DNA of 64,000 nucleotides, from the NCBI GenBank assembly GCA_017499595.2, contig CM039003.1, positions 2,480,001-2,544,000 of the forward strand. The letters are read 5' to 3'. Positions within the stretch are counted from its first letter, which is position 1. The number at the start of each line of letters is the position of its first letter. Shown one piece after another: positions 7,968-37,745 of the stretch. Both the position numbers and the translations under genes were made by a program. The DNA comes from Psilocybe cubensis. Its lineage: Eukaryota. Under the pieces are notes generated by a model. That model was not told where the DNA came from and ran no database searches. It saw only the letters and a list, made by a program, of their open reading frames with translations.

Positions 7968-9190
7968 ATGGTCTTGGAGCACCACCGGCTTCGATACAAA
8001 CCACCAAGGAGCTCACCCAATTGCGACTCGACGACTTTTTCCATGCACACATTACCTCGCAGACCTTCCCCTGCTGCGAAGGATGATGTTGTTAAAGATG
8101 AGAAACAATTGGCGGTGGTGGGAACTAGTAAACCGAAGCTGCGCTTCGTACGTGTAGAGGATTCTCTGTTCAAGGTGAGTACTCGATTGATCGATCGTTC
8201 TTATTTGCTTGTTCACCACATACATGTATCAGGTCCCTGAATCTTTCTTTCAGAACATGCCACAAGAAATTCAGGATCACACAAAATATACCACTGGCGT
8301 AGGAAAGACACCAGAGAAACCAATCTTACTGGTGGGACATACGAATCATCAGTTCAGACAATTTCTCGAGGCATACAATTCCTAGTAAGTGTGCGATAAG
8401 AATTTTCATCCAGATATTTATCTTATTTGTGCCATTTTCCCCATCTAGCCCTTCACTAAACCCTCGATCCATGGATGTGGACACCATCTTTACTATTGGA
8501 GAACTTGCCTATATGTATCAGCAACGCCATCTCGCACTTTGGTTCATGCCAATTTTCAAGGACGTCGTGATCTCGGCAGAATCCCCACTGCACCACGCTT
8601 CGAATAACATTTTTGTTCGCGCAATGAAACTCGGGATCGCTTATGGCAGCAGGGAGCTGTGTCATCGCGTATCTACAAGATGGATAGCGCGCATGCACCG
8701 TCGCGAGCTGGATCCGCTATCGGCTTTGCTCTTTGCGGATACGTACAACTTGCGCGATTTACTGAGCCACGCGTACTATATCTATCTGATGCTAGTCTTC
8801 CGGCGCATCCAGCAGTCCCACGACATTGACCCGAGGGGACTGCTTACTCCTGGACAGAGAACACATGTTATGTCTGGCTATCATTCCTTATCTGCCTATT
8901 GGAACCATCTGCGGCTCAACCCACCTGAATTTGAAGCGGCTCCCTCTTGCACCTCGCACTTGCAATGCCTTGGAGCTTGGAGGCTCCAGTGGATAGCCGC
9001 TGCGGAGAAGGACTATCCTCTCCCTGAGCTTGACATTCTTGGGCGTTTGACGTACATTGAAAAATGTCTTCGAGAGGAAATGGTTCTCGACGTTGTCCTC
9101 AATCGTGTGTGTAAGGCATCGGCCTTGAAGGCGGTGTCTGTGAAGAGAGAAATGGTGGCGAGGCAGTTGCACCACCATTTCGATTTGTGA
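7968..9190 (+). CDS. BTB/POZ-like domain protein, paralog 1; 3 exons
   Basis: Exons 7968-8174, 8233-8384, 8449-9190. FVRVEDSLFK|V and G.T.EKPI.L....QFRQFL resemble agaricomycete BTB proteins. C-terminal CTSHLQCLGAW...DILGRL...C...HHFDL. Confidence 0.8.
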
Positions 9191-15022: not shown

Positions 15023-16383
15023 ATGGTTCACCTTTACGTCCTCAACCCCACTCAAAAGCTTCGTTTTGTTTCCAGGCTGATCCTGAAGGGATCAAAACGT
15101 ATATTGAAACAGGTCAATAAGCAAGACACAAGTAGCCGAGCTTCATCATCGTCATCGTCATCGGTTACAGATGTAGAGGCTAAACGCAGGCAGAAAATTA
15201 GTATCTATGATCTCATCAAAGACGATTTGCCATCGGTCCCGGAGGGAGGCCTTACTCGCAATGCCAAATACTACATGGACGAATCAGAGGGTGGATTCTG
15301 CGTGTTTCGCGTAGAGAACACGCTGTTCAAGGTGACTATTTTAAACATAGTTTTGTGGAAATATTGCTGAATTTAGGAATTATTCCAGGTCCACAAGTGT
15401 TACCTTCTCAGGGAGCCGTCAGCATTTGGCGATATGTTCAGTCTTCCAAATATTCCTGGTATTCGGGAGGGCACCTCAGATGAAGTAGCTATCCCGCTTT
15501 GGGATACCGCCCAGCAATTTGAAGATTTATTATGGGTCTTGTATGCAATGTACGCGCATATTGTGTCGCTCAAAAGAAGTTGCTAACATCGGTAACCTTC
15601 AGACCCAGCCAACTATTTTCCTGCAACGAGGCAGACGAGCCTTCGCTCGAACGGTTACTTAACATAGCCGAAATGACCAACAAATACTGCATCGCCTCAT
15701 ATGAATCTTGGTCCCTTCAAAAACTCTATATGCTTGCGCAGAACCCCGCAGGATTCCTCCGCACTTCTCCTGCATCAGCATGTGCTCGCGCACTCGATAT
15801 CGCTGCCCTATGTAATGACCAGAAACTTCTCGACATGATTTGTCACCGCCTCATCCCTCGTATTCTATGGTCGGACGTGGAGCGCGAACCTTTCCTCAAA
15901 GTGGCCGAAACTCGCGGGCTTCGAAAGCTGCAAGGCGTGTTGTACTACAAGGAGTTGATCGAGATGGACAGGGCCTCAGCCAGTAGCAATAAACAAACAT
16001 CACCCAACCGCCTTATCTTTCCTCCTGATATGAACGTTCGGAAGCGCATGTGCTTTTTTTCTGCCCACTATTCACTCTGCGGTCTGTGGGAGTGCGTTGC
16101 GATGGACGCCCCGACATTTATCGATCATGGATGCCCCTCACACGCCGAGTGTCTCTCGGCCTGGTCAGCAATGTGGACGGAGGCTGCTTGTGCGCACCAG
16201 ACGATGCGTCATAGTTCCGTTGATGTCCTTGGAAGGCTGAAAGCCATGATGCTCATATTGAAAAAGACCGTCAGAGAGTCCGAGTCCATGACTTTGGGCT
16301 GTACACTCGCTGCGCTAGAGTCCATCACGCTGACAAGAGATGATATCATTGCTGGATTGATGGATCATTTCCAAGATTTCTGA
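15023..16383 (+). CDS. BTB/POZ-like domain protein, paralog 2; 3 exons
   Basis: Exons 15023-15331, 15389-15549, 15603-16383. VFRVENTLFK|VHKCYL.R.PSAFGDMFSLP...EGTSDE..IPL.DTA.QFEDLLWVLY is a typical agaricomycete BTB signature. Confidence 0.88.
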
Positions 16384-29169: not shown

Positions 29170-30960
29170 TTCCGTGCTGCGGCTGGCTGCATTGCGTTGC
29201 GTTGGATCGGATTGGAGGGAAGGAGAGGAGAGGAGGAGAGGAGAGGCGGGGTGCAGTGCAGTGGTACAGGTACGCGTTTTATCGTGGTACAGCTTACACA
29301 CGATTTCGTGCGGTACAAATACTGCAAAGTGCAAAGTGCAAAACTGAGAAGTGGAGGATTATTGATCTTATTAGGACGAGGACGAATCTATCTGTTGAAT
29401 TCGGGATGTCAACACTATCAATATCTCAATATCAATGTCAAGGTGTATCAACATTACCATTTGTGTGTGGGGAGCTGAGGAGGTATCCTCTTGTCCTTGT
29501 TCTTGTCTTCTCCTTGGTCCTTGTCTTCTCCTTGGTCATAGTTCTCTTCTATTCGCAGCGCAGGAGCAGGACCAGGATACGAGCCGTGCCATGACTGAGG
29601 AAATCACGACGACACTTGCAGACATGCATCCGGACCCGGACCCGGATCCGCCCATCCATTTCTGAACTTCATCTTGCGCAGACTTATTGCTCTCGGTCCT
29701 CGAGAAGCGCCATGTCCTTGTTTATCAGTATCATCGACCTTGACGGTTGTTCGTGTTCGTGTTCGTGTTCGGGTGGGTTTTGTACATGTGGGCTTTATGG
29801 GGGTTCGGGTTGTAGATTTCGATGTCGATGTTGATGTCGATGTTGATGCTGGATGTGGATGTATGTCAGCGACACAGCAAGGCACTGCACTGCACTGCAA
29901 GGAAAGGCGCAAGGCAAAGAAAAGCAAAGGAAAGGCAAAGAAAAGGAAAGGCAGGCTACGTACGTGGGGTGTGTAACATCGCGTGGATGTATTGTTTTAC
30001 GAATGATGGTCTTGAGGTTGGGTTGGGGTTGGGGTTGGAGGTTGGGGCTGGGCTAGTTGGGTTGGGAATGGTGCTTGTTGGGTTGGGATTGGAGGTTTTG
30101 TGTGTTGAACTTGTTGAGCTGGATGGAGTGGATGGAGAGGGTGAAGTGGGTAGAGTGCTGCTGCTGCTGGTGCTGGTGCTGCTGGTGCTGGTGATGCTGT
30201 TGCTGCTGCTTCCACGCGATTTGACCATACTGCGTATCCTCGGGACTATATGTACCAACAAATGGCAAGGGAAAGGGAGAATGTGACAGCGATAGCGATA
30301 TACAAGCTCAAGACTTGGTCAGACTTCGTCTGTCTCGTTTGCTTTCGCTTGAATCGGGCGTACAACGACGACGACCCTCACTCAGTGCAGTGTGCGCTGA
30401 TATTAAATATATAGTACTGAGTGATACTGGGTATACGTAAACGGCATGCTTCATAATTCATGAATCGTGCATCGTGCATCGTGAGTTATACTTGGGTGCA
30501 CCGCCTTCCGCTTCACGTCGCTTTCGCGCTCAGAGCCTCAGACTGTCATATTCGCGATTCGCGAATCGTGAAGCGGGGATTGTTGATGTCGATGTGAGCC
30601 TGAGCCTGAGCGGGGTTTGACTGCGGTGATCATGGTTCATGCGCCGCAGGCGCAGGCGCAAGCGCTGCGCGTCTCTCTCGGGGTACTTATGGGTATAGTA
30701 TGGATGGATATGTGTGGGTGGCGGAAGCAGTATTGAATAATTGCCGCCGACCCGACTGCGGGCGCTTGTGAGGCTTGTGCTGAAAGCTGTGGTTAGGACG
30801 GGTTTGTATGTAATTGTGAGGTAAGAAGTTCAAATAGCTGTGTTACATTGGGATTTGGGGCATAATGCATAATGACTCGGTCTTTTTCAACTTTGTAGGT
30901 GCTGGTTATTTCCTTTTATAATTTTTTCCCGTTACCACCACCACCACCACGCACCACCAA
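29170..30960. repeat. Dense mosaic of short tandem repeats in intergenic DNA
   Basis: GGAGA, GCAAAGT, CTTGTCTTCTCCTTGGTC x2, CCGGAC, GTTCGT, GATGTY, GCACT, GGGGTT, GCT/GCTGGT, ATCGTGC, TGAGCC, GCGCAG and ACC repeats in succession. Confidence 0.85.
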
Positions 30961-30990: not shown

Positions 30991-31357
30991 TCACTTGAAA
31001 CACTCCCCATTCTCAAAGTTGCCCCTGACGAGCGCGCGACCGCTCACACAAATCTCACCGCACAAATACGCCTTTCCTCCCCTGTTAGCGCAATTATGCG
31101 AGCTGTACCGGCCGATGGATCGGTTGTGGACACAGCTGTAAGGTATAATTATGAAAGTGAAGGGTAATTAATTAGTTTGTGCTCGAGGTTGTATTAAATG
31201 GTATTGGTAAAAGGCTTTTATACCCTTGTTTCATGTGTGTTTTGTTGTTGGTAGCAAGGGTGCCGTTGTTGGCGCAGTTGACGGAGGGGATGGAGGTTGT
31301 GGCTAAGACGACGTTGAGGAATGCCGCGACGAGCGAGAGTGTTGAGAAGAGATGCAT
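30991..31357 (-). CDS. Small secreted six-cysteine protein D (92 aa); 2 exons
   Basis: Exons 31357-31224 and 31135-30991: MHLFSTLSLVAAFLNVVLA-TTSIPSVNCANNGTLATNNKTHMKQG|CVHNRSIGRYSSHNCANRGGKAYLCGEICVSGRALVRGNFENGECFK. Confidence 0.88.
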
Positions 31358-31788
31358 CAAGAGTCGGAGTTAAGTGCAGTGGGGTGGCTGGGAGGTGGTA
31401 ATCAATTAAAGCAGATTATATACCGGCTGTGTAAGATGTCTCCCTACTCACCCGTTCTCTAGTTGATCAAATAAGAGCGGAAGAAGCACTTTTAGATTCA
31501 GTGTACCCTGTCGTCGGTCGCTGAACTTGAACTTTAGAAGCGAATAGTTAAATGCTATCTGACACCCCCGGCGCTTAAATGACTCGAGGTTGAGAAGTAA
31601 TTCATCCATTGAGCGGGCAGCGTCAGAATTGGTCAGGAAGGTATGAAAAAGAGACAGGTGTGTATCAATTTATCGCAGGTAGTAACTAGTAGACATTCAT
31701 GTCAATATATCATGCCAATCCAAAGTTCTCCTCTCCACTGGCTCAGAATACAACAATTTCATTCGAATTTCAATCCATCCGCGAGCGT

Positions 31789-32183
31789 TTAATTGAAACA
31801 TTCCCCGTTCTCGAGACCAACTTGCTTGAGAGTTGATCCGGAGATACACGTCGTGGTATCGCCCTGGACACAGAGATACGCCTTCCCGCCCTTGTTGACG
31901 CAGTTGTGCGAGCTCATCCAGCCTTTCGATTTGCTGCTGACGCATCTGCAAAGTTACAAGCATTAACATTATATCAATACATATCGCTCGCACGGCCTTA
32001 TTAGTATATGTTTTTTTTGGGTTTTGGGTTTTGTAGTACGCACCCTTCTTTCGCGTAGTTTTGGTTTTTGTCACCCATGAGAGCGGCGTTAGAGCAGCTG
32101 CCTACGAACGCAGCCTCGTCAGATGCCACGACGGCGCTGACGAATGCCATTGAAAAGAGAGAAAAGGTAGCGAGGAATTGCAT
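31789..32183 (-). CDS. Small secreted six-cysteine protein E (98 aa); 2 exons
   Basis: Exons 32183-32044 and 31945-31789: MQFLATFSLFSMAFVSAVVA-SDEAAFVGSCSNAALMGDKNQNYAKEG|CVSSKSKGWMSSHNCVNKGGKAYLCVQGDTTTCISGSTLKQVGLENGECFN. Confidence 0.92.
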
Positions 32184-33025
32184 TGTAAATTGAGTACAGG
32201 TGATTGAGGAACTTCGGGCGAAGCTCGTGCACGTTATATATCATGCACAGACTCCCGCCTTTTTAGTTTAGCTCAGCAGACTACCATGAGCCTCCTAGGA
32301 TGCCGCTAAAACTTGCTGACTCGTCCGGTTTTACCGTTGCTTCAACGACATGTTAAAGTCTGCGAAAGGGTTTTACCTGGGGTCTTGTTAATGTAGCTAG
32401 CTTGGATATAATTGGGACAGTAGAACGGCACTTTCAGCCAAAAGAGTGGATTGTATAACGGTATTGCCGTATGTCGTATACCCTTTTTGGAATGAAGGTC
32501 GGCGTTTGCCTTTGGAGGTGTTAAAAGTTTAGATTACTCTCGTGTGGTATGAGAGTGTCAATAGTATATCACTTTGTTAGTAGCTTATGTACTGAAGCTT
32601 GATTCTTTTAACCCTGTTAAGCTTGTGCATAATATAGTCAAGTGTTGGCTGAATTTTTGTGAGAGCTTAATAGGCATCACGATTTAGGCCTGATCGTAAA
32701 GCAATCCCTGAGATATATGCATGAATGTAATTTGACGAGGGAATTTAATATCGTAGTCGACTTACAATAATAGAAACAGGCTGCAAGTTAGAATATAAAA
32801 GGGTGGATCGTTTTTTTATTGGGTTTGCGTACTATTCGTAACTTTACTACACCCTTGCGACGATACTATATATAATTTTCATATTATTTGAAATCCAGAT
32901 TTCAGTCTTTTCAAATTGGTATTAGACTATAACGCAACCGTAAGGGTTAACAGGAATCAAACTAGAGACTAGAGAATGACTTACTGATAGTTCATCACTT
33001 TATCGATTGAAGGCGACCAACTAGC

Positions 33026-33388
33026 CTAAATGAAGCATTCTCCGTTTTCGAGACCAGCGGCAATAAGGTTAGACTTGCCGCTGATACAAGTCGTGGTTGA
33101 GCCCTGGACACAGAGGTAGGCCGACCCACCCTTGTTGGCGCAGTTGTGGGAACTGGCCCAACCTCGAGATCGGCTTTTGACACAGCTAGAAATTTAGGAG
33201 CATAAATGAACATAGTTCATATAGTAATAACATATTGGAAGGTCTTTTCCGCACCCTTGTTTTGCGTAGTTTTGGTTTTTGTCACCGATGAGAGCAACGT
33301 TGGAGCAGCTACCAGCGAAGGGCGCCTCTTCTGAGGCCAGGGCAACGCCGATGAATGCAATGAGCGAGAAAGTTGCGAGGAACTGCAT
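33026..33388 (-). CDS. Small secreted six-cysteine protein F (97 aa); 2 exons
   Basis: Exons 33388-33255 and 33185-33026: MQFLATFSLIAFIGVALA-SEEAPFAGSCSNVALIGDKNQNYAKQG|CVKSRSRGWASSHNCANKGGSAYLCVQGSTTTCISGKSNLIAAGLENGECFI. Confidence 0.92.
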
Positions 33389-34211
33389 TGTGGAATGGGT
33401 ACAAGCGATCAATGGGCTTCGTTTTCAGTCTTTAGTTGGGATGAAGGAAAGATGAAGCTTCAGCATATTATATATCATGCACAGGACCCGCTTTTTTAAC
33501 CCAAGTGGAACCCTTGCTATACTAAACTTGATGGTGAAATGCGGCGGCGCTTTTTAGTCCCAACAGACTCCCCTCGGGGGCATGCTAGAAGAAAGGAACC
33601 GTTTTGAACGTCGCTCCAACAACATCTTTGTCATCTCGATGACCGTGTGTACTTCATCAGTCGAGTGTCGAAAGTTGAAAAGGTGGTTGAGGTGCTTCAA
33701 GTTGGAAATGAGACTACGGATACATTGGCACCTGGACCTGTTTGCTGATGGGACTTGTGATCACTGGCTCTAAATCAGACTGTAGCATTTTAGAGTGTCG
33801 CTGGATTTGGTTCATGTTGTGGGGGCCGAAGATCAAAAGCAAGACCGGCGCCTAGACCAAGTCTGACAAAGTTAAAAGAAGAACCGTGGCACCTTCAATG
33901 AGCCTAATATGCGGAGAATGACGGAGTCTGAATCTCATTTGGAAGGTTGGGTACGAAGGAGAGGCAGAACGTTGTTCATCAAGTTGTACCGCCTGCGCAT
34001 GCAGAGGCATCGTTGTAGCTGGATAGTGGTCAAGTGTTGTACCGCTTGAGCACAGCCTTACGAGGGACTGGGCGCTTGAATTTTGAAACGTGACTTCTAG
34101 CATATTCCAGTTAAGTCCTTATCGGGGATAAGCAAGTGACAACACAGGAAGATACCGGCCATAAGACTTCCACAATGGACTTGCTCTTTCTACCACAACC
34201 ACCTTCAAAGG

Positions 34212-37200
34212 ATGGACCCTCACAATTTATCCAATACAATTTCAGATCCCACCGACATCCCAGGTGCTCAGAGCACCGAACTACACCAGAATGGGGGCGT
34301 AACCAACCCCACCGCTACCGCATTGGAGGGTCTCCATCCCCAGACTTCGGCTGACTCAGAAGCTCAACAGTCATTCGCAAACGACGACGACGTGCAAATG
34401 GACTACGACGACTTGCCCCCACTTCAAGAAGTCTCAGACTCATCAGACTCCGAATCTGAATCAGAATCGGATAGAGATGCCAATGAGGTCGAAATGCAGG
34501 CAGTTGACCAGAATGATGAAGACGCATGGATCGACGTCGATACTCCACCCAATGCTCCTTCTTCATCATCCACACCCAGGCCCTCGCTATACTCCACCAC
34601 ATCACGCCCAACTGGTAACAGGCGTGCACGGGTAGAGGATGACCAGGACGAGGAGCGTGATCGAAGGCACCCCTCACAGCGAGTAAGCAGTAGCACCAGA
34701 AACAATTCTTCTGCAACCTTCTCCTCTTCCCAGACAGGTGCTAATTTACCGCAGGTCCAAACACCCGCAACTAACCCCACCATTCCTCATATCCACCGTC
34801 ACATCATCCGCGCCAGTTTCAATGTTGCCGGAAACCTCGACATAAACAATAATGCCAATGCCCTCCGTTTATTCCAACACTTAATCTCACCACCTGTTAA
34901 CACCAACAATAATGCTACCTCGAATCAGAATAATAACAATAATCCTCCTAATACCGAGAACCCTGAGGGCGGGGTAGCGCCACCACCGCCGCAGCAACCA
35001 GAGCTTCCGCAGCAACCAGGAAACAATGGGCCACCTATCGAAGGAATGGCACTTTCCTTTGAGATTGGTCCAGGATTTACTTTTCCCATCGGTGTTGATC
35101 CCCAAGCAAATCCGCCAACAGCAAATCCAGGAGCGCACGATGCTCACACTCATCAACACCCCCCGCGCGCCGGTGGACCTTTGGCGGATATCCTTGGTCT
35201 TCTAGGTCGATTGGGTGGTGGCCTTGATGGCGAAACTTTCATCAATTTCGGCAACATGGGCTTTGGCCTAGGCATGCATCAAGAGAAGGATGATCCTGAG
35301 AGAGCGAAGAGGCTTGTTGATGGTCTCGAGGTCGTGCCTGTTGGTCTGGTCCGCAGACTGGAACGTGTCGGTGGTGCGGGTAGTGCTTCGGGCGAAGAAC
35401 CTGCCAACGGCGGTGACGCAGGCTGTGCTATCTGCTGGGACAAACTGTTAGACGGAGACGGTGAAGGTTTCGGCAAGGAGAAGAAAGAGGGATCTGCCGA
35501 GGAAGGATCATCATCGTCAGCTTCGGAGACCGTTCAGCCCAAGATCGTTTCCCTCCCCTGTGCTCATGTTTTCCATGCCGATTGTCTCCTTCCATGGTTT
35601 GCTCGGCCCAGACATACCACTTGCCCGACTTGCAGATTCAATATTGATCCCGAAAATCTGACTCATGCGTCAATGCGCAGAAGGGAAAGGAGAGAGCGAG
35701 CTGCTGCGCGTCAGGCAGAAGAGGGCGAGAATGCAGTTGATGGGGAAGCCCCTCTCGAGCATGGACCAGAGAACATCGCCGATGAGTTGGAAGAAAATAT
35801 TCAGCCTATTCCGGCGTTCGTCGATATCTTGGGTCCTGGAACATTAGCGACGCCGGAGGAAGTGAGCGAGGAGCGACGTCAAATGATGGAATTCATTCGC
35901 CTCAGAAACAACGGTGTTGCTCATCCCCCCCAAACCTCTGGCCCATCTGGACGCACGCCAACAGTCCGAGCCCATTCTGCACCTCCAGAATCTGTTGCTA
36001 CCAATGCCCCTGCCGCCGATGCTGCAACTCATACTGCATCTGATGCAAGCACGTCCAATATTGCTCATCCCATTCCTTCTGTCCCTATAGCGGCCAGTAC
36101 TCTTCCTCGGACACCAACTGTTCTTCGAGCACCGCGAGCGAATATTGGAATTTTGCCTATTCCTGTCGTAATTCCTATCCAGATCCCAGCTCCAGCTAAC
36201 GCTGCAGCGGGCAATCCAACCGGTAATAGACGAATGTTTATTGTAAGACGACCTAGACGTACTGACCATGTCATCTCTTCAGCTGCACCCCATACTCCTC
36301 AGCAAAACACGTTCTTTGCCCAGCCGCGACAGGAAGGTGATTTTGGTAATTTCCTGTCTCACATGCTTGGGGACATTCGACAACCGGTACCTTTTAATTC
36401 CCTTTTCTCGGGCTTCACTCTTAATCTTCAACAGCCACCCACACCTCAATCCGCTCAAGCGACACCCCAACCTGCTACGTCCGGGAATGCCCCCACTGGA
36501 GGATCAATGGCAGGTAATTACTTTAGATATCACCATTCGCCTGGTGTGATTGCTTACCGACCTCGAACACCCATTCCTCTATTGCGATCCCATTTTGCAG
36601 GTCCTCAACTTGCTGGTACTCCAGGGACGACAGCACAGTCTCAAACCCCACAACCTAATGCAACCAACTCGGCTCCAGGAAACCAGGCCATGCCCCAGGC
36701 CGCTAATGGAATCCCTCCCAATATGCCGAGAAATGTGATGGAAATACGGGTTGACATGATCTTCGGTCCTGGTGGGGCTTTCTCCGTCCCCGTTGGCAAC
36801 CAACCAGGTGGAGCTGTACAAGTAGGAGGCCAGGTCCCTAATCAAGACGGTCACAATGCCCATGCACCGCCGAACGGAAATACCAATGATGCACTGCGTC
36901 GCGAAATAGAGGCACGTCTTTTCGATCTCATGGCGAACAGAAGGCCTGGTGCCGGTCAGCGAGTACCAGGACAACAACAAGAGGGTCAACCCATTGCCAC
37001 GCCACCTACCCCCCAACAGCCCGGTCAACAGCAGCAAGCACAACCAATTCCTTTCGGTGATGCGAACCCTCCTGGTGCCAATCCGGGAATGAACATGCAC
37101 TTTACTGGAGCTGGTCGGTCGATATCTGAGGCATTCTCTCAGATGCTCAATGGTTTGAGAACTCAACAACCTCGGGGCGCTCCTGCTGCACAGCCTCAGC

Positions 37201-37745
37201 CAGAGGATGGTCAACAGCAGGCCCAACCGAATGCAGATGCCGCTCCTCAGGCTGAGCCGCAGCAACAGGCTCCTCCTCTTCTGCATAGATTGGGTCCTAT
37301 GGGTATGGCACAAGACTTCACTGACTTATTTGGTGGTGGATTCCCGGAACATCGTGCTCCTCGTCCTAGAAAGGATTGGACACTCCCCCCTGCACCTGGA
37401 CCTACGCTTCGACAACGAATTGAGCGTCGCGAGCGAGAGGCTGGGTTGAGGTGCCATGATGTTAGCTGCGGTATCGGACCATCTGACGAAGACCCCTATG
37501 GTACCGAAATTGCAGGAGCTGCAGCTGGTATGAAGCAGCTCTCTATCATGTCGAAGGAGGATAAGAGCGAACTCTGCTCGCATACTTTCCATGGCCCTTG
37601 TCTTGTTACGGCAGAGAGGGTTGCACTACGAGGTGCGGATGCCATCATCGAAGATGGTAATGTGGAAGTCTCATGTCCCGTATGCCGGGGCACTGGATGC
37701 GTCTCGAAGGCGGACTGGGACGAAGGTGTTGTAGCGCTGCTGTAA
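34212..37745 (+). CDS. Double RING-finger protein (probable E3 ubiquitin ligase) with long Pro/Gln/Asn-rich linkers
   Basis: RING-H2 CAIC...LPCAHVFHADCLLPWF...CPTCR and C-terminal RING-like CHDVSC...CSHTFHGPC...CPVCR. Probable in-frame introns at 36223-36282 and 36514-36600. Confidence 0.88.
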   Translation: MDPHNLSNTISDPTDIPGAQSTELHQNGGVTNPTATALEGLHPQTSADSEAQQSFANDDDVQMDYDDLPPLQEVSDSSDSESESESDRDANEVEMQAVDQNDEDAWIDVDTPPNAPSSSSTPRPSLYSTTSRPTGNRRARVEDDQDEERDRRHPSQRVSSSTRNNSSATFSSSQTGANLPQVQTPATNPTIPHIHRHIIRASFNVAGNLDINNNANALRLFQHLISPPVNTNNNATSNQNNNNNPPNTENPEGGVAPPPPQQPELPQQPGNNGPPIEGMALSFEIGPGFTFPIGVDPQANPPTANPGAHDAHTHQHPPRAGGPLADILGLLGRLGGGLDGETFINFGNMGFGLGMHQEKDDPERAKRLVDGLEVVPVGLVRRLERVGGAGSASGEEPANGGDAGCAICWDKLLDGDGEGFGKEKKEGSAEEGSSSSASETVQPKIVSLPCAHVFHADCLLPWFARPRHTTCPTCRFNIDPENLTHASMRRRERRERAAARQAEEGENAVDGEAPLEHGPENIADELEENIQPIPAFVDILGPGTLATPEEVSEERRQMMEFIRLRNNGVAHPPQTSGPSGRTPTVRAHSAPPESVATNAPAADAATHTASDASTSNIAHPIPSVPIAASTLPRTPTVLRAPRANIGILPIPVVIPIQIPAPANAAAGNPTGNRRMFIVRRPRRTDHVISSAAPHTPQQNTFFAQPRQEGDFGNFLSHMLGDIRQPVPFNSLFSGFTLNLQQPPTPQSAQATPQPATSGNAPTGGSMAGNYFRYHHSPGVIAYRPRTPIPLLRSHFAGPQLAGTPGTTAQSQTPQPNATNSAPGNQAMPQAANGIPPNMPRNVMEIRVDMIFGPGGAFSVPVGNQPGGAVQVGGQVPNQDGHNAHAPPNGNTNDALRREIEARLFDLMANRRPGAGQRVPGQQQEGQPIATPPTPQQPGQQQQAQPIPFGDANPPGANPGMNMHFTGAGRSISEAFSQMLNGLRTQQPRGAPAAQPQPEDGQQQAQPNADAAPQAEPQQQAPPLLHRLGPMGMAQDFTDLFGGGFPEHRAPRPRKDWTLPPAPGPTLRQRIERREREAGLRCHDVSCGIGPSDEDPYGTEIAGAAAGMKQLSIMSKEDKSELCSHTFHGPCLVTAERVALRGADAIIEDGNVEVSCPVCRGTGCVSKADWDEGVVALL

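What the first reader, a model, noticed from the sequence alone, without database searches (positions are those of the whole stretch)
30991..33388. Tandem trio of secreted six-cysteine mini-proteins with an unassigned Cys pattern; candidate defence-peptide or effector family
Seen: three same-strand two-exon genes (92, 98, 97 aa), each with a signal peptide and a phase-2 intron in the same Gly codon. They share the spacing C-X17-C-X13-C-X9-C-X3/7-C-X15/16-C and invariant SSHNC-x-N-[KR]-GG-x-AYLC and ENGECF motifs. The ORF track shows only first exons. Established: this spacing does not fit hydrophobins (8 Cys with CC pairs), cerato-platanins (4 Cys) or CS-alpha-beta defensins (CxxxC/CxC). Inference: a disulfide-stabilised secreted family of unknown function; local expansion suggests antimicrobial, antagonist or host-interaction roles.
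Basis: partly seen in the sequence, partly recalled or inferred. Interest (0 to 1): 0.8.

Follow-up and report, generated by a model that had tools for sequence, protein, structure and literature searches.

The report
Undescribed secreted six-cysteine fungal miniprotein family
Three neighbouring, spliced mushroom genes encode small exported proteins of an unnamed fungal family whose predicted shape matched no solved structure here and whose precursors are built like those of antimicrobial peptides, a function nobody has tested yet.

The parts
31224..31357 (-). g1 coding exon 1 (signal peptide about 19 aa, Cys1, loop; ends in GG of the split Gly codon)
   Evidence: covered by an X1 contig
31136..31223 (-). 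g1 intron, 88 nt, GTATAA..ACAG, phase 2
   Evidence: X1 contig skips 90 with 2 letters between, net 88
30991..31135 (-). g1 coding exon 2 (Cys2-Cys6, SSHNC, AYLC, ENGECF, stop)
   Evidence: family profile E 1e-16 in the window scan
31416..31422 (-). TATATAA box 65 nt before the g1 ATG
   Evidence: 10 such words in the whole window, both strands; 3 lie before these three ATGs
32044..32183 (-). g2 coding exon 1 (signal peptide about 20 aa, short acidic stub, Cys1)
   Evidence: g2 = P0001, JR316_0007293
31946..32043 (-). g2 intron, 98 nt, GTGCGT..GCAG, phase 2
   Evidence: skipped exactly by an X1 contig
31789..31945 (-). g2 coding exon 2 (Cys2-Cys6, stop)
32220..32265 (-). g2 upstream stretch with TATATAA (32234-32240), 80% alike to the g3 upstream stretch 33454-33498
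33255..33388 (-). g3 coding exon 1 (signal peptide about 18 aa, short acidic stub, Cys1)
   Evidence: g3 = P0002, JR316_0007294
33186..33254 (-). g3 intron 1, 69 nt, GTGCGG..CTAG, phase 2
   Evidence: skipped by contigs of X1, X2, X3
33026..33185 (-). g3 coding exon 2 (Cys2-Cys6, stop)
   Evidence: no other letters in the X1, X2, X3 contigs over 32986-33185 (table 8)
32927..32984 (-). g3 intron 2 in the 3' UTR, 58 nt, GTAAGT..ATAG
   Evidence: contigs of X1, X2, X3 skip 64 with 6 letters between, net 58
33454..33498 (-). g3 upstream stretch with TATATAA (33468-33474)
   Evidence: X1 and X3 contigs begin at 33429

Best explanation
The three genes are old tandem paralogues of an unnamed fungal family of secreted, three-disulfide miniproteins (about 65-75 aa mature) that most likely act outside the hypha against microbial competitors. 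Shown: gene structure, splicing, family membership and distribution. Predicted: one compact alpha/beta fold (strand, short helix, hairpin, helix, C-terminal strand). Inferred: the signal peptide routes the protein through the ER, where six cysteines pair; in most relatives an acidic pro-region neutralises the cationic mature domain until a Kex2-type cut (LxxR or KR), protecting the producer; the released domain is drawn to anionic cell surfaces and binds a defined ligand (a cell-wall glycan or precursor) through near-invariant polar residues (Asn30, Ser56, His58, Asn59, Tyr68, Glu91, Glu94 in g3), rather than lysing membranes by charge alone. The Psilocybe copies are a pro-less form: g2 and g3 have low charge (0 and +2 after the signal peptide) and would rely on the conserved site; g1 (+6) has diverged.
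For: Hydrophobic leader in 49 of 58 family rows (7 mis-spliced, fused or duplicate rows of 65 dropped). Mature domain net charge median +5, at least +3 in 56 of 65, never negative. Pro-region net negative in 34 of 41 rows with a pro-region of 10 aa or more; pro charge against mature charge rho -0.51, p 6e-4; independent contrasts r -0.50 and -0.57, -0.49 to -0.67 over 200 bootstrap topologies, 0 of 1000 shuffles as low, stable under 9 boundary choices, rho -0.40 without the CxxC subfamily. The same relation is described for alpha-defensins and cathelicidins (PMC4571063, passages). LxxR or KR/RR within 14 aa before Cys1 in 24 of 41, against 0.33 of control windows; these are the Kex2 motifs used in PMC8528282 (passages). 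[quoted passage not shown] Scattered presence with small tandem sets: two cores in Gymnopilus P0065, adjacent identifiers in Calocera and Agrocybe. Weak lead only: the fourth row of the feature search was an 'Antifungal protein' cluster at 0.78, a level that shuffled proteins often reach.
Against: No activity, target or induction is shown. The three copies here have no Kex2 site and no long pro-region, and g2 and g3 are barely cationic, so the best argument applies to relatives more than to them. No dextromeric gamma-core in 0 of 65 rows having it, none of three forms in the trio. The duplicates are under purifying selection, with no sign of diversifying selection. The Kex2-motif excess (0.59 against 0.33) is modest and the control windows overlap. 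I had no background set of unrelated secreted pre-pro-proteins, so charge balance may reflect folding or trafficking of any cationic cargo; PMC8528282 lists chaperone and storage roles for pro-domains and calls their role in fungal effectors unknown. A secreted cysteine-rich fungal protein can lack antimicrobial activity (Sca, which is anionic; PMC7711571).
Confidence: 0.5

Rival explanations
1. A glycan-binding or surface protein that serves the fungus itself: it binds its own wall or matrix polysaccharide (shielding, adhesion, development) and harms nothing.
For: Near-invariant Asn, Ser, His, Tyr and two Glu beyond the Cys and Gly suit a conserved ligand site; purifying selection; low charge of g2 and g3. 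Automatic database names say 'Cyanovirin-N domain' or 'Carbohydrate-binding module' for a few members, but these names have no domain hit behind them.
Against: No Pfam lectin or carbohydrate-binding hit in 64 proteins. A self-structural role does not call for pro-to-mature charge balance, and presence looks scattered.
Confidence: 0.2
2. A secreted inhibitor of an extracellular enzyme (protease or glycosidase) of competitors or grazers, or a small metal-binding protein using His58, Glu91 and Glu94.
For: Disulfide scaffold with a long variable loop between Cys1 and Cys2 (10-20 aa) beside a conserved polar set. Six-cysteine fungal inhibitor prepropeptides exist according to an earlier scan note (e1-7350933; unchecked).
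Against: No inhibitor family hit in Pfam; no PDB sequence hit. The variable loop is mainly lysine-rich (median +3), not centred on one conserved reactive residue.
Confidence: 0.15
3. An effector for plant or animal hosts, or a toxin against grazers.
For: Same size, cysteine content and Kex2-type pro-domain as many plant-pathogen effectors (PMC8528282); carriers include ectomycorrhizal genera, lichen fungi and one grass-root pathogen.
Against: Most named carriers, Psilocybe included, are decomposers with no living host (own knowledge). Known fungal anti-nematode proteins are mostly cytoplasmic and lack disulfides (PMC6272156).
Confidence: 0.1
4. A secreted signal between hyphae or for fruiting, read by a fungal receptor.
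For: Processed precursor and a conserved surface.
Against: No receptor-like family among 16 neighbouring frames scanned; strong cationic drift in many relatives is not needed for a hormone.
Confidence: 0.05

Closest known systems
Antifungal proteins of Eurotiales (PAF, AFP, NFAP, NFAP2; Pfam PF11402) and the bubble-protein clade (BP, PAFC)
   Same: Small, secreted, cysteine-rich pre-pro-proteins with a cationic mature part and three disulfides' worth of cysteines (PMC7711571; PMC11423270); the family studied here also occurs in four Aspergillus species.
   Different: No PF11402 hit; no GXC-X3-9-C gamma-core (0 of 65); the models have four strands and two helices, where PAF-type proteins have a five-stranded barrel; mature part longer (63-75 aa); many members are basidiomycete.
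Fungal CS-alpha-beta defensins (plectasin, eurocin, micasin, copsin)
   Same: Secreted disulfide-stabilised fungal peptides; copsin comes from a dung mushroom and binds lipid II (PMC6272156), the kind of defined-ligand action proposed here.
   Different: No CxxxC plus CxC pair: CxC in 0 of 3 genes and 2 of 65 family rows; other order of secondary structure.
Vertebrate alpha-defensins and cathelicidins (charge-balance design)
   Same: Negative relation between propiece and mature charge: r -0.74 and -0.38 in PMC4571063, -0.5 to -0.57 here.
   Different: No sequence or fold relation; an analogy of precursor design only.
Kex2-processed pro-domain (K2PP) effectors of plant-pathogenic fungi
   Same: Signal peptide, low-complexity pro-region, LxxR or KR before a cysteine-rich domain in 24 of 41 relatives.
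   Different: The three Psilocybe genes have no such site; carriers are mostly not plant pathogens; K2PP is an architecture, not a homology group.
Cyanovirin-N homologues (automatic UniRef name of P0003, P0004, P0065)
   Same: Only a short F-x-x-S-C-x-N likeness at the start of g2 and g3 (my recollection of the CVNH start, from no call).
   Different: No Pfam hit of that family, no PDB sequence hit; the mature domain is far shorter than a CVNH domain (about 100 aa, recalled) and partly helical.

Membership tests
PAF/AFP/NFAP2 antifungal proteins | small, secreted, cysteine-rich pre-pro-protein | tested here: met
   Leader in 49 of 58 rows, pro-region of 10 aa or more in 41 of those 49; the trio has a leader but only a stub. 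SignalP not run.
PAF/AFP/NFAP2 antifungal proteins | cationic mature protein | tested here: inconclusive
   Family: at least +3 in 56 of 65. Trio after the signal peptide: +6, 0, +2.
PAF/AFP/NFAP2 antifungal proteins | dextromeric gamma-core GXC-X3-9-C (PMC11423270) | tested here: not met
   0 of 3 genes, 0 of 65 family cores.
PAF/AFP/NFAP2 antifungal proteins | Pfam PF11402 profile match | tested here: not met
   No hit in P0001-P0003 at E up to 10 or in 61 relatives at E up to 0.1.
PAF/AFP/NFAP2 antifungal proteins | five-stranded beta-barrel fold | tested here: inconclusive
   Models show four strands and two helices; the family was not listed in fold searches, which does not exclude it.
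PAF/AFP/NFAP2 antifungal proteins | antifungal activity at micromolar level | not testable with these tools
   Needs a bench assay.
Bubble protein / PAFC clade | eight cysteines and two levomeric gamma-cores C-X3-9-CXG (PMC11423270) | tested here: not met
   Six cysteines and no such motif in 3 of 3 genes; motif present in 5 of 65 cores.
CS-alpha-beta defensins | CxxxC in the helix with CxC in the last strand (motif recalled; fold in PMC6272156) | tested here: not met
   CxC absent in 3 of 3; CxxxC only in g1, at the place of the hairpin; 2 of 65 cores each.
Hydrophobins | eight cysteines with two CC pairs (recalled) | tested here: not met
   Six cysteines, no CC in 3 of 3; CC in 1 of 65 cores; no Pfam hit.
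Cerato-platanins | about 12 kDa domain with four cysteines (size from a search listing; cysteine count recalled) and its Pfam profile | tested here: not met
   Mature part 73-79 aa with six cysteines; no Pfam hit.
Cyanovirin-N homologues (CVNH) | Pfam profile match | tested here: not met
   No hit for P0003 or P0004, both of which carry the automatic name.
Cyanovirin-N homologues (CVNH) | fold match | tested here: inconclusive
   Not listed; absence from such a list excludes nothing.
K2PP architecture | pro-region ending in KR, RR or LxxR (PMC8528282) | tested here: inconclusive
   24 of 41 relatives with a pro-region, control 0.33; absent from the three genes of the window. Cleavage itself not testable.

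The most novel reading that the evidence does not exclude
A new class of fungal antimicrobial miniprotein with a fold not yet solved, shared by mushrooms, moulds and lichens, which binds a specific cell-surface target through a conserved Ser-His-Asn/Tyr/Glu site and is held inactive by a charge-matched pro-region; in one subfamily the pro-region is also tethered by its own disulfide (extra Cys three residues after Cys1 with a Cys-Asp-Pro motif in the pro-region in 10 of 12 rows, against 0 of 33 rows without the extra Cys).
Probability: 0.3. Interest if true: 0.75.

Novelty: new variant of a known kind. Interest (0 to 1): 0.52.

Why it matters
Few antimicrobial protein classes are known from mushroom-forming fungi, and a 2020 paper expects further unidentified classes (PMC7711571). 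This family is small, well defined, easy to express and untested. If active, it adds a new scaffold, probably a new fold, and a natural series from neutral pro-less to strongly cationic pro-masked members in which the role of pro-peptide charge balance can be tested directly. If inactive, it is still an unannotated family with a conserved site, and the automatic 'Cyanovirin-N' names on some members should be dropped. Unnamed small secreted families are common in fungal genomes, which limits the surprise.

Full report
Observation. The window is fungal DNA from a 46.6-Mb assembly in 21 contigs. Between 30991 and 33388 lie three minus-strand genes. Enumerating all GT/GC..AG introns of 40-140 nt gave, for each gene, a splice with a GT donor that keeps six cysteines and the terminal ENGECF: g1 92 aa (intron 31223-31136), g2 98 aa (32043-31946), g3 97 aa (33254-33186), each phase 2 after GG. 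Spacings are 17-13-9-3-15, 17-13-9-7-15 and 17-13-9-7-16. g2 and g3 are identical to Psilocybe cubensis hypothetical proteins JR316_0007293 and JR316_0007294; g1 matched none of the 91 proteins fetched and may be unannotated.

Splicing. Four of six listed runs were laid. Contigs of X1 skip 98 nt at g2 and 69 nt at g3 with CT..AC ends on the plus strand, and 90 nt with two letters between at g1 (net 88). X2 (another study) and X3 skip the g3 intron. X4, which has depth in 30 of 30 bins, shows no joint at these introns. All three transcript-like runs also skip a net 58 nt in the g3 3' UTR, where the window has GTAAGT..ATAG at 32984-32927. The tool only guesses that X1-X3 are RNA, but precise intron loss is hard to explain otherwise. 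Each ATG has a TATATAA 57-86 nt upstream, 3 of only 10 in the window.

Age of the cluster. g2 and g3 are 72% identical. dS is 1.01 (exon 2) and 0.86 (exon 1), dN 0.21 and 0.13; g1 exon 2 is near or at saturation against both. Four own-genome searches found only these three cores (counts are lower bounds). g2, g3, the P. cyanescens protein and both cores of a 210-aa Gymnopilus model form one clade (100/96, 98/89); the second Gymnopilus core has its own Met and hydrophobic leader, so I infer two adjacent genes fused by annotation. The place of g1 is unresolved. Of 18 strain differences in coding sequence taken from the 40 rows shown (65 more were not shown), 10 change a residue: 4 of 5 in g1, 4 of 9 in g2 (all in the signal peptide), 2 of 4 in g3 (both in the acidic stub); none touches a cysteine or a conserved motif residue. 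Neighbours are ordinary: a 1177-aa RING-finger gene starts 824 nt upstream of g3 on the other strand; 15 further frames scanned gave housekeeping-type families or nothing.

Family. A profile of the three second exons found 62 representatives at E 0.001 or better among 1.84 billion proteins; a 48-row alignment found 48 clusters among 7446 candidates. Named carriers are Psilocybe, Gymnopilus, Agrocybe (five clusters), Crucibulum, Pleurotus, Mycena, Guyanagaster, Laetiporus, Daedalea, Rhodonia, Steccherinum, Auriscalpium, Stereum, Rhizopogon, Pisolithus and Calocera, and among ascomycetes four Aspergillus species, Halenospora, Cudoniella, Magnaporthiopsis and two lichen fungi; 20 unnamed or truncated hits were looked up by cluster, the rest were not. 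All names are 'hypothetical', 'uncharacterized' or automatic. Adjacent identifiers suggest tandem pairs in Calocera and Agrocybe. A metagenome locus, L013, has one copy in 5.4 kb with a 58-nt intron in the same Gly codon, phase 2 (read; the slice was one base off). No credible prokaryotic or viral relative appeared.

Conserved core and fold. In 49 cores, columns at 90% or more are six Cys, two Gly and Asn, Ser, His, Asn, Tyr, Glu, Glu, Phe. AlphaFold2 gave pLDDT 86.8, pTM 0.70 for g3 with 48 rows (blocks from residue 41 on score 95-98) and 92.3, 0.78 for the leaderless relative P0045 with 68 rows. Both show strand, short helix, beta-hairpin, helix, C-terminal strand after a long N-terminal loop. 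No Pfam family reached its cut-off and no PDB sequence matched. Fold searches gave no clear match (details under Tried and rejected). A new fold is possible, not shown.

Precursor design. Of 90 proteins then held, 65 had a full core. After dropping 7 mis-spliced, fused or duplicate rows, 49 of 58 have a hydrophobic leader, and 41 of these a pro-region of 10 aa or more, 34 of them net acidic. Mature domains are net positive (median +5, range 0 to +13). Pro and mature charge are negatively related: rho -0.51 (n 41). On 49 rows (16 of 65 dropped as mis-spliced, duplicate or lacking a clean start), independent contrasts give r -0.50 on a FastTree tree, with 25 contrasts of opposite and 15 of same sign, and -0.57 on an IQ-TREE tree, robust to boundaries, topology and removal of the CxxC subfamily. 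The relation comes from the Cys1-Cys2 loop and the C-terminal half, not from the Cys2-Cys3 segment. PMC4571063 (passages) reports the same relation for alpha-defensins and cathelicidins and the proposal that it prevents self-toxicity. LxxR or KR/RR precedes Cys1 in 24 of 41 (control 0.33). In a subfamily that includes the Aspergillus and lichen proteins, an extra Cys three residues after Cys1 goes with a Cys-Asp-Pro motif in the pro-region in 10 of 12 rows, against 0 of 33; these rows are kin, so this is one or a few events, but it suggests a pro-to-mature disulfide.

How it most likely works. I put 0.5 on a secreted antimicrobial: exported, disulfide-locked, masked by an acidic pro-region where it is strongly cationic, and acting through a conserved polar site on a defined surface ligand. 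The conserved His, Tyr, Glu and Asn residues and the lack of a gamma-core argue against plain membrane lysis. PMC6272156 (passages) proposes that fungal proteins against microbes are secreted and those against predators cytoplasmic, which fits an antimicrobial better than an anti-grazer role. The weak points are real: the Psilocybe copies have no Kex2 site, g2 and g3 carry 0 and +2 after the signal peptide, g1 carries +6 with no acidic pro-region, selection is purifying, and I had no control set to show that charge balance is special to antimicrobials. Rivals are a self-serving glycan binder (0.2), an enzyme inhibitor or metal binder (0.15), a host effector or grazer toxin (0.1) and a signal (0.05).

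Comparison and novelty. It is built like the antifungal proteins of Eurotiales (PMC7711571 section 3; PMC11423270 passages; PMC6352176 one passage) but is not a member: no gamma-core, no PF11402 hit, other predicted secondary structure. I found no description of the family (the last covers the first 300,000 of 469,902 characters of bioRxiv 10.1101/2021.12.09.471732); the library lacks most subscription journals. Of the lichen antimicrobial preprint (10.64898/2026.09.03.749242) I saw only abstract and outline; of PMC13127573 the sheet list, the first part of table S1 and a motif search of the tables. Earlier scan notes held no look-alike by sequence or nearby, and neither motif word occurred in any note. 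Verdict: a real, undescribed family within a known kind of protein, with an unmatched predicted fold and a testable defence hypothesis; interest 0.52.

Noticed in passing
window 32927-32984 (-): 58-nt intron in the 3' UTR of g3, skipped in contigs of three runs from two studies.
   Followed up: yes
window 30991-31357 (-): g1 carries three N-glycosylation sequons in the mature part, g2 and g3 none; it has the shortened Cys4-X3-Cys5 hairpin also seen in two Pleurotus proteins, and it matched no fetched protein record, so annotation may have missed it.
   Followed up: partly
window 31015: Runs X1 and X4 carry an in-frame three-base insertion in g1 exon 2 relative to the window, so g1 length varies between strains.
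   Followed up: no
window 32597-32769: A contig of the DNA-like run X4 skips 171 nt between g2 and g3: a strain deletion in the spacer.
   Followed up: no
P0065 (Gymnopilus dilepis CVT26_014857): 210-aa model holds two family cores, the second with its own Met and leader; probably two tandem genes fused by annotation.
   Followed up: partly
P0020, P0023, P0046, P0049, P0053, P0064, P0069, P0071, P0076, P0079: Subfamily with an extra Cys three residues after Cys1 and a Cys-Asp-Pro motif in the pro-region that echoes the Cys2 motif of the mature domain; possible pro-to-mature disulfide.
   Followed up: partly
P0017, P0073, P0078, P0081; P0032, P0039, P0042, P0050, P0056, P0057, P0060: Many database models read through an intron just before Cys2 or just after Cys5, which suggests a conserved first intron site and a second site in part of the family.
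   Followed up: no
window 34212-37745 (+): Uninterrupted 1177-aa frame with a RING domain (PF13639), unusually long without an in-frame stop for an intron-rich genome; some introns may be read through.
   Followed up: no
window 8303-9190 and 15523-16383 (+): Two long frames that look like paralogous C-terminal parts of a mushroom BTB-type family (my impression; no Pfam hit).
   Followed up: no
window 29800-30230 and 30930-30960: Short simple repeats (GTTGGG-, GCTGGT- and ACC-type units) in the spacer downstream of g1.
   Followed up: no
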